This document shows, one piece after another, positions 4,901 through 46,084 of a stretch of 64,000 bases of DNA. The stretch covers positions 4,819-68,818 of the forward strand of contig CAZDOJ010000003.1 in the NCBI GenBank assembly GCA_964507055.1. Reading direction: 5' to 3'. This DNA comes from an uncultured Gammaproteobacteria bacterium. GTDB lineage: Bacteria > Patescibacteriota > Microgenomatia > Levybacterales > UBA12049. The first letter of the stretch is position 1. Each line of letters begins with the position of its first letter. A program made the position numbers and the translations under genes. The notes beneath the pieces were generated by a model. The model had not been told where the DNA came from. It saw only the letters and a program-made list of their open reading frames with translations, and did no database searches.

Positions 4901-4963
4901 TGGCAGGATTCTTTTTACTAACTTGGACATCCTGCCTGGTGTCCAACTTTTGCTAGTATATAT

Positions 4964-4994
4964 ATTACTACATATATTAATTAGGCATGTCAAG
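4964..4994 (-). promoter_or_regulatory. Conserved promoter/operator-like element upstream of giant gene A. Read on the minus strand it contains TTGACA (4994..4989) followed by an AT-rich -10 region (ATTAATATATGTAGTAAT).
   Basis: 'attactacatatattaat[2nt]aggc[1nt]tgtcaag' is nearly identical at 4964-4994, 13794-13823 and 36007-36037. Each copy lies about 65-95 bp upstream of a giant-gene ATG and is followed by a conserved 'aatcttatc' box. Confidence 0.45.
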
Positions 4995-13724: not shown

Positions 13725-13793
13725 TGGGCAGTAATGAAATTGAGCTCAAATACTAGACTTTGTCACCTTTTGTCCAATATTTTCACATAATAT

Positions 13794-13823
13794 AATTACT
13801 ACATATATTAATAAGGCTGTCAA
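13794..13823 (-). promoter_or_regulatory. Conserved promoter/operator-like element upstream of giant gene B (same motif as 4964-4994 and 36007-36037)
   Basis: The sequence is 'attactacatatattaataaggctgtcaagg'. The reverse complement gives TTGACA plus an AT-rich -10 region oriented toward the ATG at 13724. Confidence 0.45.
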
Positions 13824-14123: not shown

Positions 14124-14657
14124 CTATTGAGGAATTAATTTGTTAAGAGCATCTTGTTCTGCGGCTGCTGATGCAATCTCGATATCTGGTTCTGTAGAAG
14201 CTGATGTTGTCCCCGCAACTGCTGAGGATTCAAATGGAATTGATGTAGGCTCTAGATAATTGAGTTTGGACTTACTGATAATTTTTTTTAATGATGGTCT
14301 ATATAAATAGACTTCTTTACTCTTTTTGTAAAGGAGAATCTTATCTCCGTTCTCTGCCTTTTTAAAGAAAGGTTGTGTATCGAGTGATTGCTTATCTGAA
14401 ACTGTTGCCACAGTTGGGACTTCATCTTTTGGAAGTGCCAATTGTTTCTTTGCATTGCCCATCATCTCATTCCAATCTTCTTCGTATGTCTTTGCCTCTC
14501 TCTGAAACACTGCTTCAGGGCTATGAAAGTACTGCCAATAACGGAAACCACCATAACTGCCCACGAGAACTCCTGCAACAATTCCAACAGCAATGAGTGT
14601 CGATGCAACTGGATGATTCTTATGAAATGTTTTAATTTTTTGCATGGCACTTAGCAT
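14124..14657 (-). CDS. Hypothetical membrane-anchored protein (N-terminal TM helix, Lys-rich extracytoplasmic part)
   Basis: ORF of 177 aa with one hydrophobic helix ('VASTLIAVGIVAGVLVGSYGG') near the N-terminus. It sits 103 bp downstream of the M23 gene, on the same strand, inside the giant-gene cluster. Confidence 0.5.
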   Translation of the reverse strand: MLSAMQKIKTFHKNHPVASTLIAVGIVAGVLVGSYGGFRYWQYFHSPEAVFQREAKTYEEDWNEMMGNAKKQLALPKDEVPTVATVSDKQSLDTQPFFKKAENGDKILLYKKSKEVYLYRPSLKKIISKSKLNYLEPTSIPFESSAVAGTTSASTEPDIEIASAAAEQDALNKLIPQ

Positions 14658-17700: not shown

Positions 17701-19002
17701 AACCACATTGCCTTCATCCACTGCATATAACGGAGTACCCATTGGCAGAGCAAAGTCTATCCCATCATGACCAGAAAGACCGTATTTGGAATAGAAATTT
17801 CGCAGTTCTCCATCGGTTAAGTAGCCACCAAAACCTTGTGAGATTGAGTAGCTTCCATCAAAAGGCATTTGGAGAGAAGCGGTACTTGCACCAAGCACTT
17901 TCGTTTCAGGATCTTGTCCATCTAAGTACACTGTCTTTACACCATCATACGAAGATTTTTCATCCGTTGGTGTAATGACAAAACTCTCAGGTACAGTTTC
18001 AGTAACAGTTCCTTCGAAATCCTGATTTGCTGTGACCTCAATATTCATCGGATACGTAAGCGGCGGATACAAACGTGTAGCACTAGTTCTTTTGATTTCA
18101 AATGGCGTTTGTGTTTTTACTTCAAATGAATCTGTGATTGAAAATTCTCCATTCAAACTTATCGCATGCAGTTCCATCGTATATGTTCCTTCGTCTGCAA
18201 CAGTATATTGTGCTTCGTAATCAGGTTTTAGAGTAAAGTTCTTTGATGAACATTCTTTATTCACTTTAATTTTGTTATTTGCAGTTGAGAGAATATCTGT
18301 AGTATTTGCTTTCACATTGGTGATCTTGAGAGAGACGCTTGCATCACAGACCATCTCTCCTTTTTCATCAAGAACTGCCATTGAAATTGCAGCTGTTTCT
18401 TTTGGCTTATATGTGGCTTTGTCAGTATTGATGGCAAGTACACCCCACGTGAAGTCTTGCTTAGAAATATTTCCTTTGGCATCTGTTACTTCAAGCGTAA
18501 ATTGGCCAGGAACGAATTGATTGGTCCCCGCCAGAAGTACTTCTGTTTGATTACCATGCTCAACAGTACGGGTTTCAACTGGAATTACCTCACCTTCCGA
18601 ATCAATAACTTTGGTCGTAAACGCATCTTTGTCGGGATTATTTACAGTCATGCTGACAACTTCATCTGCCTTAAAGTCATCTTTGGGAAGCTCTTGTACC
18701 GAAACCGGAATTGGTCTTTTGGCTGAAGTATTTGAAGCAGAATCATCTGCAAGAGTCAGCTTATTGATATCTTCAGCAACACCTACCATATTACGTTTGA
18801 TCACATCCGTATGTGGATCTGTAAGTGTTGGCTGCTCGACACGTACATCCTTAGCCCAAACCTGTGCAGGATAAGCAAGATGGCCCAAGCCGAGCGTAAG
18901 AATATTGATAATTGCGACAGTTCTTTTAAGATGAGTGAAATGCAATTTTCTGAAATGAGAAAAGGCAGTATGCATATATTTTGGGCCGTTTTTACTCGGC
19001 AA
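14761..19002 (-). CDS. Large secreted M23 (LytM-type) metallopeptidase with C-terminal LamG/concanavalin-A-like lectin modules (about 1400 aa). The start is uncertain: TTG at 19002 or ATG at 18975.
   Basis: Signal-peptide-like 'MHTAFSHFRKLHFTHLKRTVAIINILTLGLGHLAYPAQVWA'. M23 motifs 'SGHDGIDFALPMGTPLYA...GYSGNTGESTGPHLHFGM'. LamG-like signature near the C-terminus '...CFDGRIDEVRMSNTVRSAAWIETEY'. The track start codon is TTG (revcomp of 19000-19002 'caa'). Confidence 0.8.
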   Translation of the reverse strand: MPSKNGPKYMHTAFSHFRKLHFTHLKRTVAIINILTLGLGHLAYPAQVWAKDVRVEQPTLTDPHTDVIKRNMVGVAEDINKLTLADDSASNTSAKRPIPVSVQELPKDDFKADEVVSMTVNNPDKDAFTTKVIDSEGEVIPVETRTVEHGNQTEVLLAGTNQFVPGQFTLEVTDAKGNISKQDFTWGVLAINTDKATYKPKETAAISMAVLDEKGEMVCDASVSLKITNVKANTTDILSTANNKIKVNKECSSKNFTLKPDYEAQYTVADEGTYTMELHAISLNGEFSITDSFEVKTQTPFEIKRTSATRLYPPLTYPMNIEVTANQDFEGTVTETVPESFVITPTDEKSSYDGVKTVYLDGQDPETKVLGASTASLQMPFDGSYSISQGFGGYLTDGELRNFYSKYGLSGHDGIDFALPMGTPLYAVDEGNVVFSGPGDYGITIIIQHAWGKSYYGHLSKTDVPTETHVTKGMLIGYSGNTGESTGPHLHFGMKPENPDMENGYAGKIDPLPYLNLAGNGIMPPALENAINSTGVLSATTSAAEEHQHDTPGGSEANPATSSAVPSTEPEPTLETPQPSVATSSAATNSVKAQPFTVLSQEIQTEVADSESSVTEKVKVIKWQVSLKKGEKTTLSYAYRAPQVSPQFYLLGSAKLFDSSKTMIYDDTRKWQLAADAVGTDWYDYSWIYRKPITIDHTEVVTSSPTVTFMEPGTDSTQNVEFYENPDSTVTSDCTTSVTGPCSLRLNTGAGATYSMFHQGGVASDTGTRISFYMKFDNFTNSGEQGIIELYQSDDSTFIGSPLTMGPGHILEDGSGNQGSTALQAGVWYRISMAYTITSTSVNQFRVYLNGNLEYTSSNVFLSATGSNYIRMGLIADANGANKVQHMDDIYIDNGSDLSDPGEVHVTAKRPNANGAANQFTTQVGSGGSGYGSGHAPQINERPVSGTNGWSRNVANQRENFGIENAATGDVDISSQRLIASQGWIYGRRNATSCTGSRITFNGTDTTITLGNFEETYVSPITTSSTYPSNAATIGMQSCTNTATISLLEAGVIMAYTSADSALTDFPVVITRTSDSDLSTKALANGNDILFTSNDGRTKLSHQIESYASGTLVAWVKIPSLSSVNDTTIYMYYGNPSAASQQSATSVWDSNYKAVYHMAETSGTTVNDSTSNANNGTASGFTLSTNTGQVGNSQNFDGGTAGNDKVTIPNSASLQDITESNFTYSAWASPDTNPNATGNNDYFVVGKRGQHTGIRFASSSTWFSTVYNTGGTAFGASTTPFAIGAFRYVVQTVNTATKVNSLYVDGIFRNSVTYTGNPRDYTTQASSIGQADINAVCSSNFAWCFDGRIDEVRMSNTVRSAAWIETEYNNQVAPGTFSSVGSEETKIYAPTNEELMRHGKFFDGRAAEQPFVF

Positions 19003-19069: not shown

Positions 19070-22000
19070 TTACTTATTGGATCTGTAATTGAGGACGATA
19101 TCTCCAACCTGAGTGTAGTTATTATCTTTGGAATATAGCTTCAAGTAGATGATAGCAGTCTCACCAGCGGCATCCAAATCTCGTGTATTACCGGCATCCA
19201 GTTCCGAGTCATCGATGCTTATGACGTTCCATTGTCGTTGGCTTGCAGACGTCTGATTGACTCTCATTGCTACTGGCGTCGAGGCTTGTGCAGCACTCAA
19301 ACTAATATCCGAATTATAGACTCTCACATCAAGCTTATTTCCAGTATTTGTAGTTAATTCTGTATTGTAATAAATCTGAAGGGCATTACTTGTTTCCCAT
19401 GCAGCAAAATCATCAGGTAATGTAACTCTTACTGCCACTGTGTAATCTTGTATTGCTGTCTGGCTTGAATTCCATTCATAGTAACTCATAAAGTTGGACA
19501 AATTCTGACTTGCTGAACTGGAAGCATCTGACGTCATAAATCCGTTGGTTGTACCTGAGTTAGAAGCAGTGAGTATAGCTCCTGGGTATTCAGCACTAAG
19601 CGTAACCTTTCTTACTGGTCTTGCTGTGCCGTAATACGTTGGTCCCGCTGCAGGATCAAATTGAATACCATTTGTGGTACTACCGATTGTAACAATTCCA
19701 TCCACTTCAAGTTCATCCTGGATATACAGATCATTATCACCATCAGCAGTATTGTTGTTGACCACAGAATCACCAATGACGTTGAATGCTGATCCTCCAC
19801 CATAGCCACCGACATTGAGTGTGTCGTTATCAGCAATGATGATATCTGAGCCAGCTGCATTGAGGGTGATATCACCTGATGAAGAGGTAAAGGTATTTCC
19901 AGTTACATTTCCTGTTAGATTACCTGTTACATTACCAAATATCGTGCCTAATGTTTGGAGATCCCCTTCTATAAAGAGATCATCATCTGATCCCATATTA
20001 CCGTTCGCTCCAGTAATCGTATCGCCAATAATGTTATATGCAACGTCCGAAGCATTTCCTCCAATGTTCAACGTCGTAGCATCATTAAAGATCACATCGC
20101 CACCATTTGGTGCAAGTGTGAGGTCCCCTGTTGTTGTATCTAAAGTATTGTTATCAAGTCGAAGATTATCCACTGTTAACTGTCCAAGTCCAGTAATACT
20201 TTGAGTATTTCCAGTTATAGTTCCGGTCAATGTTAATGCACCCAATCGAAGCACACCCACTGAGGCTGTAATGTCATGATTACCTGTACCTGAGAATGTT
20301 AAGCCGGCACCATTACCGGTAGATGCATATCCAGTGGTACCTGCTGCTGTAATATTACCTCCAGCAATATTATCTGATCCTACATCAATTGCCCCAAATC
20401 CAGTATTGATTGAACCTGAATTCAAGACACCCACTGTTGTGAGTGAAGATGTCACAACACTCGAACCAAGTGTCGAAGCACTCAAGATACTTGCTCCATT
20501 GATCTGGAATTCTTTACCTGAAGAAAGATTTAAGTTACCTGTTGAAGTAACAGTGCCTGAACCTGCTTGAGGTGATAAGGTAATATTTCCTGTGGTATTT
20601 CCACCAATGGTCAATGTATTATTTCGAAGTGATTGGATAACTGCGTCTCCACCAAGTGAAAGTCCGTTTCCTGTAGCTGTTGCTGAAACAGATGCTGTTG
20701 GCGTCCCTGAATTCATATTAAGTACTGCAAATTTTGCTGAACTTGAAGCTGTGCCTCCGATAAGGATATCCGCGGTACTGTTTACTGGAGAGAATGCTCC
20801 ATTAGCCAAGTTCCAGTAATTCGCTCCGCCACAAGAACCCCACGTTGGAGCCGCTGCACCATTCGATTTGAAACAATCACCGTTTGTGCCTGCTGACGTG
20901 AAGGCAAATGCTGTACCGGTACCGTACGCTACACCACCATTAGTCGGAGTTGCTGTTGAATTTGTACCACCGTTTGCAATTGGTAATGTACCTGTAATTT
21001 GCGTCGTCAAATCAACTGCTCCCCATGATGGCGTTGTTCCTGAGTGAAGGAGTTGGTTACCTGTACCTGCAGCCAATCGAGTCCAATCAGTTCCGTTGTA
21101 ATACATTAAATCTCCGGTCGCATCTGAACCTAACGCAATATCTGTACCATCAACAGAGTTGTCCGCAATTGTTGTTCCAAATGATCCTGTACCTGTTCCA
21201 GTTACATCACCTGTGAGTGTAATTGTCTGGTCCCCAGTGTTTGTACCCGAAGTTGAACCAGAGAAGTTCGATCCAGCCAAAGTTCCATTACATGCAAAGT
21301 TACCGTTAGAGTTGGTAACTGTACAGCCAGTCCCACCAAATCCGCCACCAAGAAGGACATTGCCTGTTCCTGTGCCATTCAATCGGAGTTCACCTGTTCC
21401 CTTTGCATCGATAGCAAATGGAATGTTAGAATCGCCACCTGTTGCTGCGAGTGTGACTGCACCAGCTGCGGCGGCATTGGTCAAGGTTAACTCATTAATA
21501 GCTGAAGCTGTTGTACCGAAGATGAGCTGTTCATTACCATTTGCATCAGCGATAAATCCACCATTTACAAATCGTGGAGCAGTAAGTGTCTTACCACTTA
21601 AGGTTTCAGTTCCTGCCAAAGTTGCCAATGTACCTGTTGTAGGCAAAGTCACATTCGTCGTACCTGTTGTTGTAAGCGTCAACGCATTTGCACCTGAGGT
21701 AGTAAAGTCACCAGCCAACGCAAGAGCACCAGTTGTCCATGTTGGAGCACCTGTGCCACCTGAAAGTAATGCTTGTCCAGATGTACCTTGAGCTGAAGCT
21801 GCAACTGGACTTGTTCCGTTTCCGTATAAGATACCACCTTGGGTCAATGTCGTTGCACCGGTACCACCGTTGCCTACTGGAAGTGTTCCGGTAACATCAG
21901 CTGTCGCCAAACCAATTGCTGAACTGGAAAGAACACCGGATGCGTTGGTCTTTACAACGCCAGCTGTGAATCCATTCAAGACAATGTTGCCAGTTGTATT

Positions 22001-25000
22001 GTTCCCCAAGGTCAAAGACTGTCGAGCGGTTGTACCGAGAACGCCTGTCGCAGTGAGTGATGCTCCACCAGCTGATCCTGCTGAGACTGATGCCGTTGGT
22101 GTACCTGAATTAACATTCAAGATTGCAAACTTTGCGGATGATGATGATGTGCCTCCAATGAGAAGATCGACAGTACTGTTTACTGGAGCCAATGTGCCTT
22201 GGTTAAGATTCCAGAAGTTTTGTACTCCACCACTTTCATCAGTTCCACAAGAGAGTACTCCATTTGCATCAGTATCAATCGTGTTACAGTTTGCCAAACC
22301 GGTAATTCGTGCTCCACCAACTACATGTAAATTAGTAGTAGGATCAAGCGTTCCGATACCCAAATTGCCACCATTTTCGAATACAAATTGTTGCGTACCT
22401 GATCCTCCAGTTCGGATAGCCAAACCACCTCCAAAACCTTCAATACGAGCATCGAAATCTTCAGCTGTTGAGGTCTTAAAGTCAATAAAGGCATCATCCG
22501 ATGTACGAGCAAGTTCAATACTTCCGGTATCTGTTAATAATGACTGTTGCGTACCGTTCAGTGCTTCAATATTTCCAGCAACTGTAAGGCGGTTAGTTGG
22601 AGTTGCTGTGCCGATACCTACAAAGTTATTGCCATCACTGTTCAACACGATATTGCCTGTTGTATTACCACCAAGGCTCAATGTTTGATTGACAGTGGTC
22701 TGTAATGCACCTGCTGCAGTTAAGTATGCCGCTCCAGCTGATCCAGCTGATACTGATGCTGTTGGGGTTCCTGAGTTGACGTTAAGGACTGCGAACTTTG
22801 CTGAATTACTTGCTTGTCCTCCGATCAAGAGATCAAGAGTATTGTTCACTGGTGAGAGTGATCCGTTTGCCAAGTTCCAGTAATTTGTTCCAAGAGCTGC
22901 CGCATTGGACCATGTCGGATTTTGTCCTGCTCCATTGGTAGTCAAAACATATCCTGCAGTTCCAGGAGCCAAAGCACTCATTACACCCGTAGCTGAGAAG
23001 TATGGAACTGCACCTTGATTAGCCGCTGAAAGATTTGCTCCAGTACCACCATTTGCGGAGCCAAGAACACCCGTAATATCAGCTGTAAGAGAAACTGCTC
23101 CCCATGATGGAGTCGTTCCTGAATGCAAAAGCTGTGTACTTGTACCAGCAGCCAATCGTACCCAATCAGTGCCGTTGTAGTACATCAAATCTCCTGTCGC
23201 ATCTGATCCAAGTGCAATGTCAGTTCCATCGACTGAGTTATCTGCAATTACTGTTGCGAATGATCCTGTACCTGATCCAGTAACATCACCTGTAAGGGTA
23301 ATTGTCTGGTCACCGGTATTGGTACCTGAAGTTGTTCCAGAGATGTTTGAACCAGTAACTGCACCATTACATGCAAATGCCCCAGTAGAGTTGGTAACTG
23401 TACAGCCAGTGCCACCGAAACCACCACCAAGGAGAACATTTCCTGTACCAGTGCCGTTCAATCGAAGCTCTCCAGTGCCTTTAGCATCGATAGCAAATGG
23501 AATATTAGAATCACCACCGGTTGCTGCAAGTGTGACCGTGCCGCCAGCAGCTGCATTGGTTAAAGTTAACTCATTAATAGCTGAAGCTGTTGTACCGAAG
23601 ATCAATTGCTCGTTACCATTTGCATCAGCGATGAAACCACCATTTACAAATCGTGGAGCTGTAAGTGTCTTGCCACTCAAGGTTTCAGTTCCAGCCAAGG
23701 TTGCAAGTGTTCCAGTTGTTGGCAAGGTGACGTTGGTTGCACCTGTTGTGGTTAAGGTCAATGCATTCGCCCCTGAGGTTGAGAAATTACCAGCCAACGC
23801 AAGTGTCCCCGTTGTCCAAGTTGGAGCACCTGTACCACCAGAGAGCAAAGCTTGCCCAGCTGTACCTTGAGCTGAAGCCGCAACTGGACTTGTTCCATTT
23901 CCATAGAGTACGCCACCTTGAGTCAATGTAGTTGCACCAGTACCACCGTTACCAACTGGGAGTGTTCCTGTCACATCAGCCGTTGCCAAACCAATTGCTG
24001 AGCTCGAGAGTACACCTGATGCATTTGTCTTTACAACACCAGCGGTAAATCCATTCAAGACAATATTTCCTGTGGTACTGTTCCCCAAAGTCAATGATTG
24101 ACGTGCTGTTGTACCAAGTACACCATCTGCAGTAAGTGACGCTCCACCAGCTGATCCTGCGGAGACTGATGCCGTTGGTGTACCTGAATTAACATTCAAG
24201 ATTGCAAACTTCGCTGAGGCTGAAGATTGACCACCCACGAGCAAATCAACAGTTGAATTCATAGCAGAGAGTGCTCCATTATTTTGATTCCAGTAATTAG
24301 CCAAAGATCCAGTACATGAACCCCAAGTTGGTGCTCCACCTGCATTGGATTGGAGACATTGGCCGGATGTTCCTTGTGCTGTTTGGGCTACGACTCCTGA
24401 TCCGTTGGTGTAAAGCAAACCGCCATCAGTTGTGAAGCTTCCAAAAGTAACTGTGCCTGTTGTGCCGAGATTCGCAACGCCAGTTATATTCTGGCTATTT
24501 CCGGTGATTGCACCTGTTAATGTGGTTGCACCCAATCGGAGTACCCCTGAAGATGCTGAGATGTCATGATTTCCTGTACCTGAGAATGCTAGACCAGCTC
24601 CGTTACCTGAAGCAGTAAATCCGGTTGTTCCAGTGGAAGTGATATTGCCTCCAGAGATTGCATCTGTACCTGTATCTATTGAACCAAAGCCCGAGGTAAT
24701 TGAACCTGCGTTCAATGCTCCGACGGTTGTAAGTGATGAGGTAACGACACTTGATCCAAGTGTTGTTGCATTCAAAACTGATGCTCCATTAATCTGGAAT
24801 TCTTTGCCACTTGCCAAGTTCAAACTTCCAGTCAAGTTGACAATTCCTGCACCAGCCAAAGGTGAGAGTGTAATGTTGCCAGTCGTATTGCCACCAATGG
24901 TAAGTGTTTGATTCGCTGTTGTCTGCAATGTACCTGCTGCAGTCAAGTATGCTGCACCTGCTGATCCTGCTGATACTGATGCCGTTGGTGTTCCAGTATT

Positions 25001-28000
25001 AACATTAAGTACTGCAAACTTTGCAGAGTTACTTGCTTGTCCTCCAACTAAGAAGTCAACGGTTGAATTCATTGGGGTGATAACACCATTTGCTTGGTTC
25101 CAGTAATTAGCTAAACCGCCAGTACAATTACCCCAAGTTGGTGCACCACCGCCATTGGACATCAAACATTGTCCCCCAGTTCCTGCAGCTGTTTGTGCGA
25201 CAACACCTGAGCCGTTGGTGTATAAGAGTCCGCCATCAGTTGTAAGACCACCAAAGGTGATTGAACCGGATGCTGCAAGATTTGCTAAGCCTGTGAGGTT
25301 TTGTCCATTACCGGTAATTGCTCCAGTTAATGTTGTTGCACCCAATCGGAGTACGCCACCTGAGGCGGAAATGTCATGATTTCCTGTACCTGAGAATGTT
25401 AATCCAGCACCATTTCCTGAACCTGTAAATCCTGTTGTGCCAGTTGCTGTGATGTTACCTCCGGAGATATTATCTGCACCTGTATCGATTGCACCAAAGC
25501 CTGAAGTGATCGAACCTGCATTCAAAGCACCGACGCTTGTCAGAGATGAATTGATGATACCCGAACCAAGCGTATTACTACTCAAAACACTTGTGCCACC
25601 AATCATATATGCACCACCAACGATATTCAAATCGCCATTACTACTTAACGTCAATCGTGTCGTACCAGAAGATGATGCTGTGAAGATATCACCTGTTCCC
25701 TGCTTGTTGACGATCAATGCGGAGTTACCACCAGCATTTGGAGCAACAACGACGCCACCTGTGCCAGCGTTGGTTCCAAGTGTCAGATTAAATCCACCCA
25801 ATGCTATCTGTGTTGCAGCATCAAGACTCAAACTGTCAGCAAGTTCTGTGAAGTTGATGACATCATCAGCGATTGAAACATTTGCTTCATTTGCAGGTGA
25901 AGCTGTTACTAAGAAGTCTGTTCCGAAATCAATCGTATCAACATCAGTACCGACACCACTATCGTTATTCTCAACATTTACGACACCTGCTGGTCCACCA
26001 GTACCGCCAGCATCAGATCCACACGCCCAGACTTTTGTTGTATCATTCCATTTAAGAATCTGTCCGTCATTACAACCTCGAAGGATCGACAAACCGTTTG
26101 CAGTACTGAACTCCAAGCCTGAATTGGAGGAAGTATTGACTGTATCTCCAGAAGAAGTCAATGCAATTGTAGCCACACCAGTATTGCTCAATGTTATGCC
26201 TCCTGAAATTGATGTAAAGGTTGGGACGCCTGAACCGTTACCCAAAAGGACTTGACCACCAGTTGGAGCTGATGTTACAGATAAGGCACTTCCTCCATTT
26301 CCATAAACAACGCCATTGGTTGTAAAGCTTGTTTGACCTGTACCACCATTTGCAACAGGTAATGTTCCGGTCACATCAGCTGTTGCCAAACCGATTGCTG
26401 AACTTGAAAGTACACCTGATGCATTTGTTTTAACGATGCCAGCTCCAAATCCGTTCAAGACAACATTACCGGTTGTACTATTACCAATAGTTAAGGATTG
26501 TCTGTCAGTTGTGCCGATTGTTCCATTTGCTGCAAGTGAAATACCACCCGTAGATCCTGCAGAAACGGATGCTATTGGTGTGCCTGAATTGACATTTAAG
26601 ACTGCAAACTTCGCAGAATTGGATGCTTGTCCACCAATCAAGAAGTCAACAGTTGAGTTCACTGGAGTTAACACGCCATTTGCCTGATTCCAATAGTTTG
26701 CGAGGCCACCCGCACATGAACCCCATGTTGGTGCACCACCACCATTAGAAATGAGACATTGGCCTGAGCCACCCGCTGTCGTCTGAGCTACAACGCCTGA
26801 TCCATCTGTATATAAGAGTCCACCATTATTGGTAAAGTTAGCAAAGGTAATCGAACCTGATGAAGACAAACCAGTCAATCCGGTCAATGTACCGGTCGCT
26901 GTCATATTTCCATTACTTGCAAGAGTAAATCGTGTGGTCCCAGCTGCACTTGCAGTAAAGATGTCACCTGTTCCCTGCTTGTTGATGATCAAAGCTGAAT
27001 TGCCTCCAGCATTTGGGGCAACGACGATACCACCTATACCAGAGTTCGTACCCAAAGTTAAATCAAAGTTCGATAATGCAATGCTTGTCGCTGCATCCAA
27101 TGTCAGCGAGTCTGCAATTTCAGTGAAATTGATGATGTCGTCCGCAATTGAAACATTTGCCTCTGTTGATGGTGAAGCTGTTACTAAGAAGTCAGAACTA
27201 AAGTCAATCGTGTCGACACTACTCCCAACAGGTGAATCATTGTTCTGGATATTCACAATACCAGCACCACCTCCGCCACCAGCATCACTTCCACAAATTA
27301 AATTACCACTTGCATCAGTATCGATGGAATCACAGTTAGCCAATCCATTAATTCGGACATTTCCACTACCGTTCAATGGATTCAAAACGATATTCCCCGT
27401 GGTATTACCTCCGAGAGTTAAGGTGTTGTTGTTTGTTGTCTGAATTACACCAAGTCCATTGAATGTCAAATTGCCTGAAGTAGTAGCATTTCCTGTACCA
27501 GAGAATACTTGGAACTTCGCTGAAGCAGTACTTGTCCCGCCAATCAACAAATCATCCGTAATACTTAATGGAGAAAGAGCTCCAGCAATTCTCTGCCAGT
27601 AATTTGTTCCTACACTTGCGGCATCAGTCCAACTTGGTGCTCCTGAACCATTTGATATGAGAACTTGACCATTACTGCCAACGCCTGTGAATGCATATGA
27701 TGAGCCATTTGAATAGGCAACTGAACCCGCAGATCCAACCGATGTTACACCTGTGCCACCATTACCTACAGCTAATGTTCCGGTAACATCACCTGAAGCC
27801 AAATCAATTGCACTTGATGAAAGGACACCTGAGCCATTGCTCTTGACGATTCCTGTAGAAAGTCCACTAAAGGTGATTGTCCCAGCGGCAGACAAATTAT
27901 TCAATCCAGTAATGTTTTGAGAATTACCTGTTATTGCACCAATCAATGTTGTCGCACCCAATTGTAATGTTCCTCCTGATGCTGTGATCGTATGATTACC

Positions 28001-31000
28001 TGTTCCAGAGAATGTTAAATCAGCATCATTTCCTGAAGCTGTAAATCCAGTTGCTCCAGAAGCAGTAATATCAGTACCTTGGATCGTACTACTTGTAAAG
28101 ATACTGCCAAAACCATTTGCGATTGATCCTGAAGCCAAAGCACCTACACTTGTCAAAGATGAATTGACGACACCAGCACCAAGTGTTGAGCCGGTGAGAA
28201 CACTTGTTCCATTGATCTGGAATTCTTTACCGGATGCCAAGTTAAGATGGCCTGTGGAAGTAACTGTACCAGCACCAGCCAATGGAGCAAGCAGGATATT
28301 TCCTGTGGTGTTGCCTCCGATTGTAAGTGTTTGATTATTCGTTGTCTGCAATGTACCTGCAGCTGTTAGATATGTTGCTCCGGTTGCACCAGCTGATACA
28401 GATGCTGTTGGTGTTCCCGAATTGACATTTAAGACTGCAAACTTTGCAGAATTACTTGCTGATCCTCCAATAAGGAAATCAACTGTCGAATTCATTGGAG
28501 AAAGTGCACCATTTGCTTGGTTCCAGTAATTGATAGAACCTGCAGCACATGATCCCCAAACCGGTGCTCCTCCGCCATTGGATTGGAGACATTGACCAGC
28601 TGTGCCTTGAGCTGTTTGTGCCACGACTCCTGATCCGTTGGTGTAAAGCAAACCTCCATCGGTTGTAAATCCTCCAAAGGTGACAGTTCCTGAAGCTGAA
28701 AGATTGCCCAAACCTGTGATATTTTGTCCGTTGCCGGTAATAGCTCCAGTAAGTGTTGCGGCACCAAGTTGGAGTGTGCCTGCTGAAGCTGAGATCAAGT
28801 GGTTACCAGTTCCTGAGAACAAGAGGTCCGCGTCATTGCCTGTAACAGCCAAACCGGTTGTTCCTGTAGAAGTAATATCTCCACCAGAAATAGCATCAGC
28901 TCCTGTATCGATTGCACCGAAACCTGAAGTAATTGAACCTGCATTCAATGCCCCAACTGTTGTCAAAGATGAATTTGTAACACCTGATCCGAGAGTGTTA
29001 CTACTTAAGACAGTTGTTCCACCAATTTGATAATTACCACCAGTAATATTCAAGTCGCCTGAGTTACTCAAGGTCAATCGAGTTGTACCTGATGCTGAAG
29101 CCGTGAAGATATCACCTGTCCCTTGCTTGTTGACGATCAATGCGGAATTACCTCCAGCGTTTGGTGAAACAACGACACCACCAGTTCCAGCATTTGTTCC
29201 AAGAGTTAAATTAAAGTTGGAAGTTGCGATACTTGTCGCTGCATCCAATGTCATGTTGTCGATGAACTCAGAGAAGTCCAAAATATCATCAGCGATTGAG
29301 ACATTTGCTTCATTGGATGGAGATGCTGTCACTGTGAAATCTGTACTGAAATCAACTGTATCTACGTTTGAACCGACTCCAATATCATTATTCTGGACAT
29401 TAATAGTACCTGCAGATCCAGATCCACCAGCATCGGTCGCACAAACCCAAGCCTTTGTTGAATCATTCCACTTAAGAATTTCATCATTTGCACAACCTCG
29501 AAGCAATGATAATCCATCAGTTGTATTGAACTCCAAACCAGAATTGGAACTTGTATTGGCTGTATCTCCAGATGAAGATAACGCAATTGTTGCAACTCCG
29601 GTATTACTAATGGTTACTCCACCTGAAATTGTCGTGAATGTTGGAACTCCAGAACCATTGCCCAAAAGCACTTGACCACCAGTTGGTGCGGAAGTTACAG
29701 ACAAAGCACTTGCACCATTGCCGTAGACAACACCATTGGTAGTAAAGCTTGTCTGTCCTGTACCACCGTTGCCAACTGGTAATGTACTCGTCACATCACC
29801 AGAACTCAAGTCAACTGCACTCGATGAAAGCACTCCAGATCCATTGCTCTTGACGATTCCTGTAGAAAGTCCACCAAATGTGATCGTTCCGGCAGCTGAT
29901 AAGTTGTTCAAACCAGTGATACTCTGGCTATTTCCAGTGATTGCACCAGTTAATGTGGCTGCACCGATTTGGAGTGTTCCAGATGATGCACTTACGATAT
30001 GATTACCCGAGCCTGAGAAGGTTAATCCTGCTCCAGTACCAGTCGCTGTAAATCCTGTAGTTCCAGATGCTGTAATATCTGATCCTTGAATCGTGCTTCC
30101 AGTTAAAATACTACCGAAGCCACTTGCGATTGAACCGGACGTCAATGCACCAACACTTGTCAAAGATGAATTGATAACACTTGAACCAAGCGTTGAAGCA
30201 CTCAAGATACTGACGCCATTGATCTGGAATTCATTTCCAGTTGTGAGATTCAAGTTGTCGTTCACTGTAAGTGTATTCTGTGATAGATCCGAAAGTTGGC
30301 CTTCGATTGCAAGATTTCCGTTTCGGCTAAGAACAAATTGTGTTGTTCCCGACGCTGAAGCCGTGATGATGTCTTGATTTCCGGTTTCATCGAAGACAGC
30401 CAATGCTTTTCCTGCTGCTGCACCAGAAACTGTCAATTTACCTGTTGGTGTATCTGTACCAATTCCGAGTTTTTTGGTGAGAGCATCCCATGAGAATCCT
30501 GAAGTTTCAGATGATAATGATCCTGTCCCATCGAAGAATGCAATTTGTCCCGCAGTACCTGATCCAACCAAGCCTCCACCTGATCCTGCACAATTACCAG
30601 AATCAAGACAAATCTCGCCGCTTTCATCAGGCAATGTATATGTTCGAGGTGCTGTAAGGTTTGCGATGGTTAACTGACCACGTCCATCTGTATCATAAAA
30701 GTACAAAGACGTTCCTTGTGTACCACCAGCAGTGAACGCTGCACCTGAGATGACATCACCAATCGCAGTGATGTCTCCTGCACCACCAACTGATGTCACA
30801 TTCTTCCAACTTAATCCGCCAGTACTATTAGTAGTCAAAACATAATCGCTCGAACCATCAGAACCTGGCCATGTGTATGTAACACCATTGAATTGTGTTG
30901 TTCCAATATTTACCAAATTACCATTTGTATCTACTCTTTGTGTTCCACTACCTGCTCCCGTGTTAAGACCTGTCGTTCCATTTATAGTAGTACCAGTAAT

Positions 31001-34000
31001 AGTACTCGTTGTAGCGATTGTTCCAAAACCATTTGCGATCGATCCTCCGGTCAATGCACCAACATTTGTCAAAGATGAATTAACAACGCCTGTTCCAAGG
31101 GTTGTCGCGGTGAGAACATTTATTCCGTTAATCTGGTAGTTATTCCCTGACGCAAGATTCATAGTACCGTTAACTAATACTGTCCCTGCACCATTTAATG
31201 GTGAGAAGATTATATTGCCAGTACTATTGCCACCAACTGTTAAGGTTTGATTATTTGTGGTTTGGATGTTGCCAGCTGCATTGAATGTGAGTGAACCTGA
31301 GGTTGAAGCATTGCCTGTATTACCAAAGATTTGGAACTTGGCTGAAGCTGTACTCGTACCACCAATTGCAAGATCATCGGCAATATTAAGAGGAGCAAGA
31401 AGTCCTGCGTTTCTCTGCCAATAGTTGGTACCGAGACTTGAAGGACTTGCCCAAGTTGGAGCACCGGAACCATTGGAAATAAGTACTTCTCCATTACTAC
31501 CAACACCTGTGAATGCAAATGTCGAACCGTTGGAGTAAGCGACCCCACCAGCAGAACCGACTGAAGTGATACCTGTTCCTCCATTGCCAGTTGCCAATGT
31601 TCCAGTAATATCACCTGAAGCCAAATTAACTGCACTTGATGAAAGGACGCCTGAGCCATTGCTCTTGACGATTCCAGTGGAAAGCCCACCAAAGGTAATT
31701 GTTCCTGATGCAGAGAGATTATTAACTCCGACAATACTTTGACTGTTTCCGGTTAAGTCACCAGTTAAAGTAGCTGCTCCTATCTGAAGTGTCCCAGATG
31801 ATGCACTTATGCTATGATTTCCTGAGCCTGAGAAGGTCAGTCCAGCTCCGTTTCCTGTTGCCGTAAATCCTGTTGTACCGGATGCAGTAATATCACTTCC
31901 CTGAATTGTATTTGACGTAAAGATACTTCCGAAGCCATTTGCGATCGATCCTGAAGTCAAAGCTCCAACACTGGTCAAAGATGAATTGATAACTCCTGAG
32001 CCAAGCGTTGATGCACTTAAGACACTTGTACCATTGATTTGGAACATGTTGCCTGAAATCAAATTCAAACTATCATTTACTGTTAATGCATTCTGGGTAA
32101 GATCTGAAAGCATGCCTTCGATTGCTAAGTCACCATTGCGTGCTAAGCGTAGTTGTGTGATACCGGATGCTGAAGCTGAGAAGATATCTTGATTACCAAG
32201 TTCATCAAAAATTGCTAATGCCTTGCCTGCTGCTGCACCAGAAACGCTCAGCTTACCTGTTGGAGTGTCTGTGCCTATGCCAAGTTTCTTGTTAATTGCA
32301 TCCCAGGCAAAGCCAGAAGTCTCGGATGAAATTGTGCCTGTATCTGTGAAGAATGCTAATTGACCAGCCGTACCCGTACCAACAATTCCACCACCAGCTC
32401 CAGCACAGTTACCAGAATCAAGACAAATTTCACCTGATGCATCTGGCAATGTGTATGTTCGAGGTGAAGTGAGGTTTGCTATAGTAAGTTGTCCTCGCCC
32501 ATCTGTATCATAAAAGTACAAAGAGGTTCCTTGTGTGCCACCAGCAGTAAATGCCGCACCAGAGATCACGTCTCCAATGGCAGTAATATCTCCAACTCCA
32601 GGAAGCGTTGCTGGATCATTCCAAGTCAAATCTCCACTGCCATCAGTTGTGAGGACGTAGTTATTCGAACCTGCAGAACCCGGCCAGCTATAAGTAATGC
32701 CATTGAACTGGGTTGTTCCGATGTTGGTTAGATTTCCGGTAGTGTCAATTCGTTGTGTGCCAGCCCCAGCACCCGTATTTACACCGATTGTACCGTTAAG
32801 GGTTGTACCAGTAATCGTATTGTTGTTATTAATCGTGCCAAAACCCATTGTGATGGAGCCAGCACTCAATGCTCCAACTGAAGTCAAAGATGAATTTGTA
32901 ACGCCTGATCCTAGTGTTGTTTCGGTCAAAACATTTGAACCATTAATCTGGTAAGCCTTACCTGAAACAAGGTTGAGATTACCAGTCGAAGTTACCGTCC
33001 CATTCCCATTTTGAGGAGAAAGTGTAATATTTCCAGTTGTTCCACCACCAATCGTTAATCCTTGATTATTGGTACTTTGGATTACGCCTGCGGTATTGAA
33101 CGTAAATGTACCTGAAGTACTCGCATTACCTGAGATACCAAAGACTTGGAACTTCGCTGAGTTTGTGGCAACTCCACCAACGAGTAAATCATCTGAGATG
33201 TTTAATGGAGCAAGCGTACCTGCACCTCGTTGCCAATAGTTAAGTGTGCCCGAAGATATCCATGTAGGTGTTCCTGCACCAGAGACCGCAAGCACTTGTC
33301 CTTCCGTCCCTATTGGAAGTGCAGCTAATGTATTACCAGCTGAAGCATAAACCAAATCACCTGTATTGAATGAGTTTAAGCCAGTACCGCCATTCGTCAC
33401 AGGAAGAACACCTGTTACATATGAAGTTCCTCCCGCAAGATTGAGTGCAGAACTTGAGAGGAGACCTGAGCCATTACTTTGAACTACACCAGTTCCAAGA
33501 GCACCAAATGTGACTGTGCCAGAAGCAGAAAGATTATTGAAACCTGTCGCGTTCTGACCATTTCCAGTCAAAGCCCCAGTCAAAGTAACTGCTCCCAATC
33601 GAAGGACACCCGATGACGCAGTCACATCATGATTACCTGTGCCTGAGAAGTTCAATCCGGCACCGTTACCTGTTGAAATAAAGCCAACTGAACCAGTGGA
33701 AGTAATATCCCCACCACTAATTGCATCGGCTCCAACATCAATATTCCCAAATCCAGAAGTGATAGAACCTGAATTAAGAGCACCAACTGAAGTAAGAGAT
33801 GAACTCACAACGCCAGAACCCAAACTAGTACTTGTGAGGACAGGCGTTCCACCAATCTGATAGGAACCACCGATGATGTTGAGATCTCCACTGCTATTGA
33901 GGGTAAGTCTTGTCGTCCCCGACGCGGATGCAGTCAAAATATTCTGACCAGATCCAGTGTAATTAAAGACAGCAAGAGCCTTACCTGCAGGACCCCCAGA

Positions 34001-35941: not shown

Positions 35942-35968
35942 TGGGCAGCACCGGTAAGTTTTAAGCAC

Positions 35969-35983
35969 AAATGGATAAGTTTG
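35969..35983. repeat. 15-bp direct repeat 'AAATGGATAAGTTTG', copy 1 (copy 2 at 36088-36102). The two copies flank the conserved promoter element of giant gene C.
   Basis: Exact 15/15 match read directly in the sequence at 35969-35983 and 36088-36102. Confidence 0.6.
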
Positions 35984-36006
35984 CTTAACTTTTCACCAGT
36001 ATATTA

Positions 36007-36037
36007 ATTACTACATATATTAATATAGCTTGTCAAG
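36007..36037 (-). promoter_or_regulatory. Conserved promoter/operator-like element upstream of giant gene C (third copy of the motif)
   Basis: The sequence is 'aattactacatatattaatatagcttgtcaagg', followed by 'tattatcttatcttaatcttatc'. It has the same orientation and a similar distance to the ATG as at the other two giant genes. Confidence 0.45.
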
Positions 36038-41787: not shown

Positions 41788-43182
<1,395 letters not shown>

Positions 43183-46078: not shown

Positions 46079-46084
46079 GGTATT

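What the first reader, a model, noticed from the sequence alone, without database searches (positions are those of the whole stretch)
20350..33000. Giant gene C is a mosaic of long, highly similar internal repeats (2079-bp tandem duplication and at least three other families)
Antisense shadow ORFs reveal an exact 2079-bp offset between two copies at about 88 % identity (about 21159 vs 23217). The 'GC.ND.ILKWND' module recurs at about 25.7, 27.0 and 29.1 kb. 'NYWN.ANG.LSP.NST.D.LIGG' units recur many times. Repeats of this length can promote RecA-dependent expansion/contraction (size-variable surface fibre, antigenic or host-range variation). They are also classic sources of assembly collapse, so the true gene may be even longer.
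Basis: seen in the sequence. Interest (0 to 1): 0.5.

Follow-up and report, generated by a model that had tools for sequence, protein, structure and literature searches.

The report
Giant membrane-anchored fibre with old repeats
The repeats are real, but they are old, diverged protein modules resembling phage tail fibres that build a roughly 5,600-residue surface fibre in a small-genome bacterium, so this is not a hot spot of ongoing rearrangement or an assembly error.

Summary
Window 19070-35968 (- strand) is one uninterrupted ORF of 5,632 codons (5,623 from the ATG at 35941).

**Architecture.** About 85-90% of it is a mosaic of roughly nine module types, each 40-220 aa and present in 2-20 copies. 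From the N terminus: a cytoplasmic MerR-type HTH, one TM helix, about 5,400 Gly/Thr/Ser/Asn-rich residues, and a C-terminal beta-sandwich with a carbohydrate-binding-module fold. Several modules are homologous to phage tail-fibre shafts.

**The flagged repeat.** The 2079-bp offset is confirmed. It is a 1.16-kb segment (1.37 kb at protein level) at 82.8% nucleotide identity, not 88%, and not a 2079-bp tandem unit. All other families are 66-76% identical.

**Age of the copies.**
- The best pair is 93% identical in protein, with dS 0.83 and dN/dS 0.06.
- The longest exact match in the whole gene is 50 bp.
- The copies are therefore old and under purifying selection.

**Comparison with a relative.** A syntenic ortholog in a closed 1.61-Mb genome carries the same duplication. 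It lacks two in-frame module blocks (611 and 270 aa) and shows patchy old gene conversion. Recombination between repeats has therefore reshaped the gene slowly.

**Verdict.** Rapid RecA-driven size variation and assembly collapse are not supported. The repeat finding is ordinary for a giant adhesin. The HTH-TM-fibre architecture is the more unusual part.

The parts
19070..35968 (-). Giant gene C: one ORF, 5,632 codons from GTG 35968; the likely true start is ATG 35941 (MNESLL), giving 5,623 aa
   Evidence: ORF list and translation. An independent gene call on the Logan contig, and the ortholog, both start at MNESLL.
35780..35929 (-). N-terminal MerR/excisionase-type helix-turn-helix (aa 14-63), predicted cytoplasmic
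   Evidence: Pfam HTH_17 42 bits, MerR 41 bits, MerR_1 38.5 bits, all above the curated cut-offs. NCBIfam 'excise' domain 32.3 bits.
35486..35779 (-). Low-complexity linker (aa 64-161) rich in Pro, Val, Thr, Ser and Ala
   Evidence: Composition count. It aligns poorly between paralogs.
35411..35485 (-). The only hydrophobic helix (aa ~162-186): a signal-anchor, N-in
   Evidence: Kyte-Doolittle 19-residue windows above 1.6 occur only at aa 157-169, with a peak of 2.63. The N-side flank is K/R-rich.
34595..35410 (-). Conserved membrane-proximal 'base' (aa 187-458), shared with paralogs A and B and with about 2,100 database proteins
   Evidence: 42% identity to gene B over 430 columns, E 2e-87. 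2,145 representatives at E <= 1e-3.
20165..34594 (-). Repeat mosaic (aa 459-5268). Module order: C-E'-K-B-C-A-B-E-K-B-C-A-B-E-K-B-C-D-K-B-C2-A-B-C-A-D2K-C2-A-C-D-K-B-C2-A-B-C2-A-C-F-C-A-G-A-C-F-C-A-B
   Evidence: jackhmmer module map, tile blast, motif anchors.
22934..24298 (-). Copy 1 of the block flagged at the 2079-bp offset (A-C1C2-F-C2C1'C2, aa 3891-4345); blastn core 23093-24253
20855..22219 (-). Copy 2 of the same block (aa 4584-5038); blastn core 21014-22174
   Evidence: 82.8% nucleotide identity over 1,161 bp. Over aa 3900-4260 the pair is 93% identical in protein, dS 0.83, dN/dS 0.067.
22220..22885 (-). Spacer between the two F blocks: module A plus the single-copy module G (a 'VGIGTxxP' tail-fibre-like unit)
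   Evidence: G matches PHROG 9942, tail fiber protein, E 1.2e-7.
29757..33241 (-). Pair of B-E-K-B super-modules at an 1815-bp offset (29757-31426 vs 31572-33241, 72.8%)
   Evidence: The E copies are closer to their positional orthologs than to each other. Window 29936-35968, which holds most of this pair, is identical in an independent assembly.
24480..29860 (-). Pair at a 3426-bp offset (24480-26440 vs 27906-29860, 72.9%), containing the D modules
   Evidence: D1D2K lies at 29039-29647 and 25616-26227; D2K only at 26891-27262.
24494..25303 (-). 270-aa block (B-C2-A) absent from the ortholog; it is one copy of an 810-bp tandem unit (24127-24763 vs 24937-25573, 75.5%)
26765..28597 (-). 611-aa block (aa 2458-3068) absent from the ortholog; both breakpoints lie in homologous C2/A junctions (GQCL.SNGGGAP.WGSC...NYWNQANG)
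   Evidence: sequence read.
19652..20164 (-). Pre-terminal region H (aa 5269-5439), the part least conserved with the ortholog, which has about 500 extra residues here
19073..19651 (-). C-terminal domain T (aa 5440-5632): a beta-sandwich with a carbohydrate-binding-module-like fold, the presumed distal tip
36007..36036 (-). Conserved promoter-like element TTGACA-N-ATTAATATATGTAGTAAT with an AT-rich palindrome; the TTGAC lies 95 nt upstream of the ATG
   Evidence: Alignment of five upstream regions. The pattern occurs only at 36007-36036 and 4964-4993, with 0 expected by chance; a one-gap copy lies at 13795-13823.
14761..19002 (-). Downstream co-directional gene: M23 peptidase + DUF2341 + LamG, 1,413 aa
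   Evidence: Pfam. The same neighbour is present in the ortholog locus and next to a T-domain ORF in JGI contig L015.

Best explanation
Gene C encodes a giant cell-surface fibre, most likely a host-attachment adhesin of a small-genome, probably patescibacterial (CPR) organism.

**Topology.** A MerR-type HTH sits in the cytoplasm. A single N-in signal-anchor helix holds the protein in the membrane. About 5,400 residues project outward.

**The stalk.** It is a concatenation of about nine kinds of beta-rich Gly/Thr/Ser/Asn modules. Several (B, C, F, G) are homologous to phage tail-fibre shaft repeats. They act as length-adding structural units.

**The tip.** The C terminus is a beta-sandwich with a carbohydrate-binding-module fold that probably binds a glycan on the partner cell. 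The conserved downstream M23 peptidoglycan endopeptidase suggests attachment coupled to cell-wall attack.

**The repeats.** They are old duplications kept similar in protein by purifying selection but diverged at synonymous sites. On long time scales, unequal recombination and gene conversion between modules add, remove and partly homogenise blocks, so fibre length and composition differ between species.

**Shown:** ORF, domains, module map, divergence statistics, ortholog comparison, fold of the tip.
**Inferred:** surface location, fibre shape, possible trimer state, glycan binding, role in host attachment.
For: - One ORF with a single hydrophobic helix, and 14 Cys pairs spaced 6-17 residues apart, all distal to it.
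- Pfam MerR/HTH_17 at aa 14-63.
- Composition of the outer part: G 17%, T 15%, S 11%, A 10%, N 9%.
- Module map with 2-20 copies per module.
- Module B matches PHROG 6002 at E 1e-6, and G matches PHROG 9942 'tail fiber protein' at E 1.2e-7.
- About 100 database homologs of B/C are 350-530-aa proteins that hit tail-fibre PHROGs at 1e-20 to 1e-47, or carry Peptidase_S74 or Mtd_N.
- Homologs of F carry Gp53-like_C, T4_gp9_10_N and DUF5907.
- Purifying selection: dN/dS 0.06-0.14 between copies and 0.07 between orthologs.
- Old age: dS 0.83-1.5 between copies; longest exact match 50 bp.
- The ortholog has the same duplication and block indels at homologous junctions.
- Patchy conversion signal of 78/38/17 site patterns.
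- The fibre-M23-small ORF synteny is conserved in two other genomes.
- Chromosomal context: ATP synthase, ArgRS, LeuRS, ComEA/ComEC; no phage genes.
- In a cultured patescibacterium, surface proteins with lectin-like and dockerin domains are essential for epibiotic growth (PMC10633639).
Against: - There is no experimental or proteomic evidence of expression or localisation.
- The monomer AlphaFold2 model of an A-B-C unit is poor (pLDDT 68.7, mostly coil) and has no significant PDB fold match. The fibre shape and any trimeric state therefore rest on homology only.
- No Pfam or NCBIfam model matches the modules directly.
- The CBM-like fold is a common beta-sandwich at about 10% sequence identity, so glycan binding is not proven.
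- The taxonomic assignment is indirect. The only closed relative is labelled 'uncultured Gammaproteobacteria' by its submitters, although AtpB-beta is equidistant from E. coli, Bacillus and mitochondria.
- The role of the HTH is unexplained by a pure adhesin model.
Confidence: 0.7

Rival explanations
1. One reading: a contingency locus whose long repeats drive frequent RecA-dependent expansion and contraction, giving rapid size or antigenic variation within a population.
For: - Repeats of 0.4-2 kb are abundant.
- Block indels relative to the ortholog sit at homologous junctions.
- There is a gene-conversion signal.
- Family members vary widely in length.
Against: - The best pair is 82.8% identical, with dS 0.83. 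The others are 66-76% identical.
- There are only four exact matches of 30 bp or more, the longest 50 bp.
- From general knowledge, homologous recombination falls steeply with divergence and needs tens of identical bases.
- All contigs of this strain retrieved from six runs (SRR14271332/335/336/340/359/361) are identical to the window where they overlap it, which within gene C means only 29936-35968.
- Only about 3-4 block events separate genomes at dS of about 1.2.
Confidence: 0.1
2. An assembly artefact: the gene is a mis-join or a collapsed version of a longer repeat array.
For: - Short-read assemblies fragment here. Logan contigs around the locus are 2-8 kb.
- The 45.6-kb contig ends at 29936, within about 100 bp of a 34-bp exact repeat.
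Against: - The 16.9-kb reading frame is uninterrupted, with dN/dS far below 1 in every copy.
- The copies are too diverged to collapse.
- There are 0 mismatches with an independent contig over 29936-50832.
- The module order is collinear with a closed 1.61-Mb genome, whose gene is shorter.
Confidence: 0.03
3. A true phage or prophage tail-fibre gene, or a remnant of one, rather than a cellular surface protein.
For: Modules B, C, F and G are homologous to tail-fibre shafts. The tip resembles the beta-sandwiches of receptor-binding proteins.
Against: - The N terminus is an HTH plus a TM anchor, not a virion-attachment domain.
- The window has no capsid, terminase, tail or integrase genes.
- The flanks are ATP synthase and aminoacyl-tRNA synthetases.
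- Synteny is conserved in a second genome.
- Three paralogs share the same anchor.
- There is no Peptidase_S74 chaperone domain.
Confidence: 0.03
4. Primarily a membrane-tethered transcription factor with a ToxR/CadC-like topology. The fibre would be a contact sensor, and the MerR-type HTH would regulate its own and its paralogs' promoters. This is not exclusive of the adhesin role.
For: - The HTH is strongly conserved in three paralogs and two orthologs.
- 42 of 149 family representatives carry it.
- Every one of these genes is preceded by a nearly identical 60-bp element with TTGACA and an AT-rich palindrome, found nowhere else in 64 kb.
Against: - No binding was tested.
- 107 of 149 relatives lack the HTH yet keep the base and the fibre.
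- The conserved element may simply be a strong promoter inherited by gene duplication.
- Only the HTH is present, without the MerR dimerisation helix or effector domain.
- A 5,400-residue sensor would be without precedent.
Confidence: 0.14

Closest known systems
Phage tail-fibre proteins (shaft repeats as in PHROG 6002, 30158, 9942 and 31660; fibres ending in Peptidase_S74 or starting with Mtd_N or T7-like adaptors)
   Same: - The shaft modules are homologous.
- The composition is rich in Gly, Thr, Ser and Asn.
- The polarity is the same: anchored at the N terminus, with a beta-sandwich binding-type domain at the C terminus.
- The proteins are modular and have been shuffled.
   Different: - It is encoded on a chromosome among housekeeping genes.
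- The N terminus is a cytoplasmic HTH plus a membrane helix instead of a virion adaptor.
- It is 5-15 times longer.
- There is no S74 chaperone domain.
- The trimeric state is untested.
Giant repetitive bacterial adhesins (RTX/T1SS adhesins such as LapA, SiiE and MpIBP; Ebh; trimeric autotransporters)
   Same: A very long extension built from tens of repeated modules, with a ligand-binding domain at the far end. It is presumed to hold cells to a surface or a partner.
   Different: - There are no RTX nonapeptides, no T1SS genes, no LPXTG at the C terminus and no YadA-type anchor.
- The modules are not BIg, FIVAR or Hep_Hag.
- The anchor is an N-terminal TM helix.
Giant1-5 gene cluster of Apilactobacillus kunkeei (PMC12863079)
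   Same: Several consecutive genes for surface proteins of 3,000-8,000 aa occupy a few percent of a ~1.5-Mb genome. They have diversified by intragenic recombination.
   Different: The protein folds are unrelated (beta-solenoid heads in A. kunkeei). The organism and anchoring differ, and there is no HTH.
Membrane-tethered one-component regulators (ToxR, CadC, TcpP)
   Same: The topology is the same: an N-terminal cytoplasmic DNA-binding domain, one TM helix and an extracytoplasmic domain.
   Different: The DNA-binding domain is of the MerR/excisionase type, not an OmpR-type winged helix. The outer part is about 5,400 aa of fibre. No regulatory function has been shown.

Membership tests
Phage tail-fibre proteins | Sequence homology to tail-fibre shaft repeats | tested here: met
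   B matches PHROG 6002 at E 1e-6; G matches PHROG 9942 at E 1.2e-7. Homologs of B, C and F hit tail-fibre PHROGs and Pfam families.
Phage tail-fibre proteins | Encoded in a phage or prophage structural module and attached to a virion through an N-terminal adaptor | tested here: not met
   The window has no phage genes. The N terminus is an HTH plus a TM helix.
Phage tail-fibre proteins | Homotrimeric fibre | not testable with these tools
   Only monomer AlphaFold2 was available. The model was poor, with pLDDT 68.7.
MerR-family transcription regulators | N-terminal winged HTH of the MerR type | tested here: met
   Pfam MerR 41 bits (cut-off 28.2), HTH_17 42 bits, MerR_1 38.5 bits.
MerR-family transcription regulators | Coiled-coil dimerisation helix and C-terminal effector-binding domain | tested here: not met
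   The MerR_1 match covers only profile positions 2-47 of 69. A low-complexity linker and a TM helix follow.
MerR-family transcription regulators | Binds a dyad operator in a promoter spacer | not testable with these tools
   A conserved AT-rich palindrome follows TTGACA upstream of all paralogs. Binding was not tested.
RTX / T1SS giant adhesins | GGxGxD nonapeptide repeats, a C-terminal T1SS signal and adjacent ABC/MFP genes | tested here: not met
   There are 0 GGxGxD motifs. The window has no T1SS genes.
Sortase-anchored (LPXTG) surface proteins | C-terminal LPXTG followed by a hydrophobic tail | tested here: not met
   The only LP.TG matches are internal, at aa 4082 and 4775 in module F. 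The only hydrophobic segment is at aa 162-186.
Trimeric autotransporter adhesins | C-terminal YadA-like beta-barrel anchor | tested here: not met
   There is no Pfam hit. The C terminus is a soluble beta-sandwich.
Contingency / phase-variable repeat loci | Near-identical repeats or simple-sequence tracts that rearrange at high frequency | tested here: not met
   Maximum nucleotide identity is 82.8%. The longest exact match is 50 bp, and there are no homopolymers of 8 or more.
Contingency / phase-variable repeat loci | Length variants within one population | not testable with these tools
   Only short contigs of one clone were retrievable. No reads were available.
DGR (diversity-generating retroelement) targets | A nearby reverse transcriptase and a template/variable repeat pair with adenine-specific differences | tested here: not met
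   Pfam scans found no reverse transcriptase. The window has no near-identical repeat pair.
Carbohydrate-binding modules (beta-sandwich CBMs) | Beta-jelly-roll fold | tested here: met
Carbohydrate-binding modules (beta-sandwich CBMs) | Demonstrated glycan binding, or sequence membership of a CAZy CBM family | tested here: not met
   The domain has no Pfam or NCBIfam match. It is about 10% identical to its structural neighbours. Binding itself cannot be tested here.

The most novel reading that the evidence does not exclude
The HTH-TM-fibre proteins form an undescribed class of contact-sensing, membrane-tethered regulators. A phage-tail-fibre-derived fibre would touch the host cell, and the cytoplasmic MerR-type HTH would act on the conserved palindromic promoter element found upstream of every paralog. 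This would couple host contact directly to expression of the attachment and cell-wall-attack genes.
Probability: 0.12. Interest if true: 0.75.

Novelty: new variant of a known kind. Interest (0 to 1): 0.4.

Why it matters
**For the finding as given.** Long internal repeats in a giant gene need not mean instability or mis-assembly. Here they are old, protein-level modules whose synonymous sites have drifted apart.

**For biology.** Small-genome, probably episymbiotic bacteria devote about 30 kb of this 64-kb window, and probably about 2% of the genome, to three paralogous fibres built from phage-tail-fibre parts. That would give a concrete candidate for how such cells reach and recognise their hosts. 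It would also be a clear case of cells re-using viral receptor-binding hardware. The family has more than 2,000 unannotated relatives. I found no description of it in the library I could search, and that search was limited.

Tried and rejected
- **Family scans.** Pfam, NCBIfam and PHROG scans of the two halves of the protein matched only the HTH. Module-by-module PHROG scans gave weak but significant hits for B and G only.
- **PDB sequence search.** A search with 4,999 residues found nothing significant. The best hit was the phage S16 long tail fibre at E 0.078.
- **Structure of an A-B-C unit.** AlphaFold2 with 135 sequences gave pLDDT 68.7, mostly coil. Foldseek against the PDB found nothing; the best hit was the HFTV1 tail fibre at E 4.6.
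- **Strain-level comparison.** The giant protein exceeds the 5,000-aa limit of the exact look-up. Neighbour-gene look-ups returned only 2-8-kb Logan contigs plus one 45.6-kb contig, all identical to the window. The metagenome scan with the single-copy G module found no relative above 47% identity over more than a short stretch.
- **Exact look-up of gene B.** It was not on record.
- **Literature.** Searches for CPR plus MerR, HTH, giant or tail fibre, and for the run and study accessions, found no description of this architecture.
- **DGR, shufflon or integrase explanations.** Rejected: no such genes and no near-identical repeat pairs.
- **RNA genes.** No tRNA and no Rfam family in the window.

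Full report
**1. What is at the coordinates**

The finding lies inside one open reading frame on the - strand, window 19070..35968, 5,632 codons from a GTG. An independent gene call on a Logan contig and the ortholog both begin at the ATG at 35941 (MNESLL). The protein is therefore probably 5,623 aa. Residue numbers below count from the GTG. Residue p corresponds to nucleotide 35968-3(p-1).

**2. Checking the observation**

A self-comparison of the gene gives 48 direct matches with E <= 1e-10. Every offset listed (the top 47 of the 48) is a multiple of three, as expected for protein repeats.

The 2079-bp offset is exact: 21014-22174 vs 23093-24253, 1,161 bp. Identity is 82.8%. It is 82.6% over the '+'-strand shadow ORF 21159-21791, and the best 100-bp window reaches 90%. 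Identity at that offset is high only from about 21000 to 22200. This is therefore a 1.2-1.4-kb block repeated with a 2,079-bp period, not a 2,079-bp tandem unit.

Other long pairs are:
- 24480-26440 vs 27906-29860 (72.9%)
- 29757-31426 vs 31572-33241 (72.8%)
- an 810-bp tandem pair, 24127-24763 vs 24937-25573 (75.5%)

The literal GC....ILKWND motif occurs only twice, at aa 2158 and 3298; the third copy has only the D2-K half. The NYW(N/Q) unit occurs 10 times.

**3. Anatomy of the protein**

Pfam finds only an N-terminal MerR/HTH_17 helix-turn-helix at aa 14-63. A low-complexity linker follows. Next comes the only hydrophobic helix in the protein, at aa ~162-186, with a K/R-rich N-side flank. 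Then comes a 270-aa membrane-proximal region conserved in the paralogs.

From aa 459 to 5268, seeded jackhmmer searches resolve a mosaic of modules (tile map):

| Module | Length (aa) | Copies |
|---|---|---|
| A | ~92 | 10 |
| B | 125 | 10 |
| C1 | 40 | 9 full-length plus 2 partial |
| C2 | ~48 | ~20 |
| D1 | 69 | 2 |
| D2 | 72 | 3 |
| K | 52 | 7 |
| E | ~170 | 3 |
| F | 217 | 2 |
| G | — | 1 |

The outer part is 17% Gly, 15% Thr, 11% Ser, 10% Ala and 9% Asn. It contains 14 cysteine pairs spaced 6-17 residues apart.

**4. What the modules are related to**

No curated family covers them directly.

Searched singly, module B matches PHROG 6002 (E 1e-6). Module G matches PHROG 9942, 'tail fiber protein' (E 1.2e-7).

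A database search with one A-B-C unit returns two groups:
- Close hits in patescibacterial MAGs: Candidatus Levybacteria at 66% identity and E 6e-76, and Saccharibacteria.
- About a hundred 350-530-aa proteins from marine metagenomes. The sampled ones hit tail-fibre PHROGs at 1e-20 to 1e-47 and some carry Peptidase_S74 or Mtd_N; in the marine examples the matched segment lies within the stretch covered by the PHROG shaft matches.

Module F has 1,062 relatives. Some carry Gp53-like_C, T4_gp9_10_N, Phage_cement_2 or DUF5907.

The stalk is thus built from the same kit of parts as phage tail-fibre shafts. The polarity is also the same: attachment at the N terminus and a binding-type domain at the C terminus.

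A monomer AlphaFold2 model of an A-B-C unit was poor (pLDDT 68.7, mostly coil) and matched nothing in the PDB. That is what one might expect of a chain that folds only as an oligomer, but it proves nothing. A PDB sequence search was also empty.

**5. Age and dynamics of the repeats**

For the best pair (aa 3900-4260 vs 4593-4953), protein identity is 93% and nucleotide identity 82%. dS is 0.83, dN 0.055 and dN/dS 0.067. Other pairs have dS 1.3-1.5 and dN/dS 0.09-0.12.

In the whole 16.9 kb only four exact repeats reach 30 bp: 50, 38, 34 and 32 bp. There are no homopolymers of 8 or more.

From general knowledge, RecA-mediated recombination needs tens of identical bases and falls by orders of magnitude at 15-30% divergence. 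These repeats are therefore poor substrates today.

**6. Comparison with a relative**

The T domain led to a closed 1.61-Mb MAG chromosome, OZ246394.1. It has the same gene order: giant HTH gene, M23/DUF2341/LamG peptidase, a 175-aa ORF, then another HTH giant. Its giant gene is annotated as 4,679 + 596 aa. The two ORFs overlap at an AAAAGG run, so this is most simply one ~5,263-aa gene with a frameshift.

The two proteins are 87% identical and collinear over aa 10-2457, with dS of about 1.2. The differences are:
- Ours has a 611-aa block, aa 2458-3068 (window 26765-28597), that the relative lacks. Both ends lie in homologous C2/A junctions.
- Ours has a 270-aa block (window 24494-25303), one copy of the 810-bp tandem unit.
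- The relative has 44 extra residues in G and about 500 extra before T.

Both genomes carry the two F blocks, at offsets of 693 and 719 aa. That duplication therefore predates their split.

The two copies within each genome are nevertheless slightly more alike (82.5% and 80.3%) than copies between genomes (77-78%). Four-sequence site patterns over 1,371 nt are 78 'copies of one genome together', 38 'positional orthologs together' and 17 for the third grouping. They cluster in alternating stretches of about 150-450 nt. That is the signature of old, patchy gene conversion. The E and D copies, by contrast, are closest to their positional orthologs.

Recombination between modules has therefore happened, but rarely.

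**7. Assembly quality**

A Logan contig from run SRR14271340, reported in four samples, equals window 29936-50832 with no mismatch in 20,897 bp. It thus covers the first 6 kb of the gene, which holds one copy and most of the other of the 1815-bp-offset pair. Other short contigs from five further runs also match exactly.

The contig ends within about 100 bp of a 34-bp exact repeat. That fits a k-mer assembler breaking at a repeat, not a mis-join.

The rest of the gene (19070-29935) is supported by three observations:
- the intact frame
- dN/dS far below 1 in the repeat pairs tested
- collinearity with the closed genome

Read depth could not be examined.

**8. Context**

All genes from the left end of the window to 35968 are on the - strand:
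- Gene A (ATG at 4900, runs off the left end, at least 1,633 aa) has the same HTH-TM-base and the same C-E-K-B-C-A-B-E order as the first third of gene C.
- Gene B (5604-13724, 2,706 aa) has the HTH-TM-base, a few A/B modules and a Kelch propeller.
- A 177-aa ORF and the M23 peptidase gene follow, and then gene C.

The second giant in the relative is the ortholog of gene A (75% identity), not of gene B. Gene B is therefore an extra paralog here.

A T-domain ORF followed by an M23 peptidase and a small ORF also occurs at the end of a JGI contig.

The rest of the window is housekeeping: the F-type ATP synthase operon, NDK, an M16 peptidase, two dockerin proteins, ArgRS, a two-component system, ComEC/ComEA and LeuRS. 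There are no phage, recombinase or reverse-transcriptase genes, no tRNA and no Rfam hit.

**9. The family**

The membrane-proximal region (aa 151-460) has 2,145 relatives at E <= 1e-3 among 1.84 billion representatives, and 377 at E <= 1e-10. The top 149 are 144-4,679 aa long (median 971). Of these, 42 begin with the same type of HTH.

**10. The organism**

The closest named relatives of the modules are patescibacterial. ATP synthase beta scores 345-408 bits against Bacillus, mitochondrial and E. coli enzymes alike, with E. coli at 360-364 bits. That is not what a gammaproteobacterium would give.

I therefore treat the submitters' label on OZ246394.1 as doubtful and the CPR assignment as probable but unproven. 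The window itself is part of an 80.4-kb NCBI contig.

**11. Interpretation**

The best-supported reading is a membrane-anchored giant surface fibre that ends in a glycan-binding-type tip. It is encoded next to a peptidoglycan endopeptidase, in a small-genome organism that probably lives attached to other cells. In the cultured patescibacterium Southlakia epibionticum, surface proteins with lectin-like, dockerin and Fn3 domains are essential for epibiotic growth (PMC10633639). Clusters of consecutive giant surface-protein genes shaped by intragenic recombination are known in another 1.5-Mb genome (PMC12863079).

If the stalk packs like the T4 long tail fibre, it would be a few hundred nm long. 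That rests on roughly 0.05-0.06 nm per residue, which is my recollection and not a computed value.

The repeats are the modules of that stalk. Their number changes by rare unequal recombination. They are neither a current instability hot spot nor an assembly problem.

**12. What remains odd**

The cytoplasmic MerR-type HTH is strongly conserved. Each of the five genes examined (A, B and C here, two in the relative) is preceded by a nearly identical ~60-bp element. It consists of GATAAGAT repeats, TTGAC(A), and ATTAATATATGTAGTAAT containing a TATTAATA palindrome. The TTGAC lies 89-99 nt before the ATG, and the element occurs nowhere else in the window.

This non-coding block is better conserved than the adjacent coding sequence of paralogs that are only 43-48% identical in protein. 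It could be simply a strong promoter kept after duplication, or it could be the operator of the tethered HTH. That is the basis of the 'novel case', which I rate as unlikely but not excluded.

Noticed in passing
window 1-4900 (-), 5604-13724 (-), 19070-35968 (-): Three paralogous giant genes lie in a row. Each has the same MerR-type HTH, TM helix and 270-aa base, 43-45% identical to one another. Gene A runs off the left end and repeats the module order of the first third of gene C. Gene B carries a Kelch propeller. Together they fill about 30 kb of the window.
   Followed up: partly
window 36007-36036, 13795-13823, 4964-4993 (- strand); L005 and L006 just upstream of position 10001: A nearly identical ~60-bp upstream element precedes all five HTH-giant genes, with its TTGAC 89-99 nt before the ATG, and occurs nowhere else in the window. 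It consists of GATAAGAT repeats, TTGAC(A), and ATTAATATATGTAGTAAT with a TATTAATA palindrome. It is better conserved than the adjacent coding sequence and may be a promoter plus an operator for the tethered HTH.
   Followed up: partly
window 35944-36006, 13727-13794, 4903-4963 (- strand leaders): Each 62-73-nt leader between the conserved element and the ATG folds into a hairpin of -11 to -17 kcal/mol. The stem sequences differ (for example TTAAGCA/TGCTTAA in gene C and TTGGACA/TGTCCAA in gene A), which may be covariation. No obvious Shine-Dalgarno sequence precedes the conserved CTGCC(C)AATG.
   Followed up: partly
window 14761-19002 and 14124-14657 (-); L002 11926-15684; L015 3632-7597: An M23 peptidase gene (here with DUF2341 and LamG) and a small ~175-216-aa ORF of unknown function follow the T-domain end of the fibre gene in three different genomes. 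This suggests a conserved unit for attachment plus cell-wall hydrolysis.
   Followed up: partly
L002 about 9990-10040 (OZ246394.1): The ortholog is annotated as two overlapping ORFs (4,679 and 596 aa) that join in frame across an AAAAGG run. This is likely a homopolymer sequencing error or a real frameshift in that genome.
   Followed up: partly
L005/L006 (OZ246394.1); window 41791-43182: The related closed 1.61-Mb MAG is labelled 'uncultured Gammaproteobacteria'. ATP synthase beta of this lineage is no closer to E. coli (360-364 bits) than to Bacillus or mitochondria (372-408 bits), so the label looks wrong. Module homologs point to Patescibacteria.
   Followed up: partly
L006 vs window 1-4900 and 5604-13724: The relative's second giant (2,855 aa, with Kelch) is the ortholog of gene A (75% identity over 500 aa), not of the Kelch-bearing gene B (44%). 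Gene B is an additional paralog inserted in this genome.
   Followed up: partly
window 46083-46600 vs 48429-48946: Two adjacent dockerin-bearing genes (46085-48319 with CBM_4_9, and 48431-49609) share a 520-bp 3' segment at 72.8% identity, which is the dockerin-containing C terminus.
   Followed up: no
window 9040-9870 vs 10315-11139; 8920-9076 vs 10120-10276: Gene B has its own internal repeats, about 830 bp at 72% identity.
   Followed up: no
window 29936; exact repeat 27834-27867 / 29841-29874: The independent 45.6-kb short-read contig ends inside the giant gene, within about 100 bp of one of the four exact repeats of 30 bp or more. Other short-read contigs around the locus are only 2-8 kb.
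   Followed up: no
window 54339-57095 (-): The ComEC region is split into a Competence-domain ORF (55196-56458) and a separate metallo-beta-lactamase ORF (54339-55199), next to ComEA (56448-57095).
   Followed up: no
window 62001-64000: G+C drops to 30%, against 38-47% in the rest of the window.
   Followed up: no
gene C, aa 600-5046: All 28 cysteines outside the N-terminal leader form 14 pairs spaced 6-17 residues apart at fixed places in modules C2, D1, E, F and G. They are likely disulfide-closed loops.
   Followed up: no
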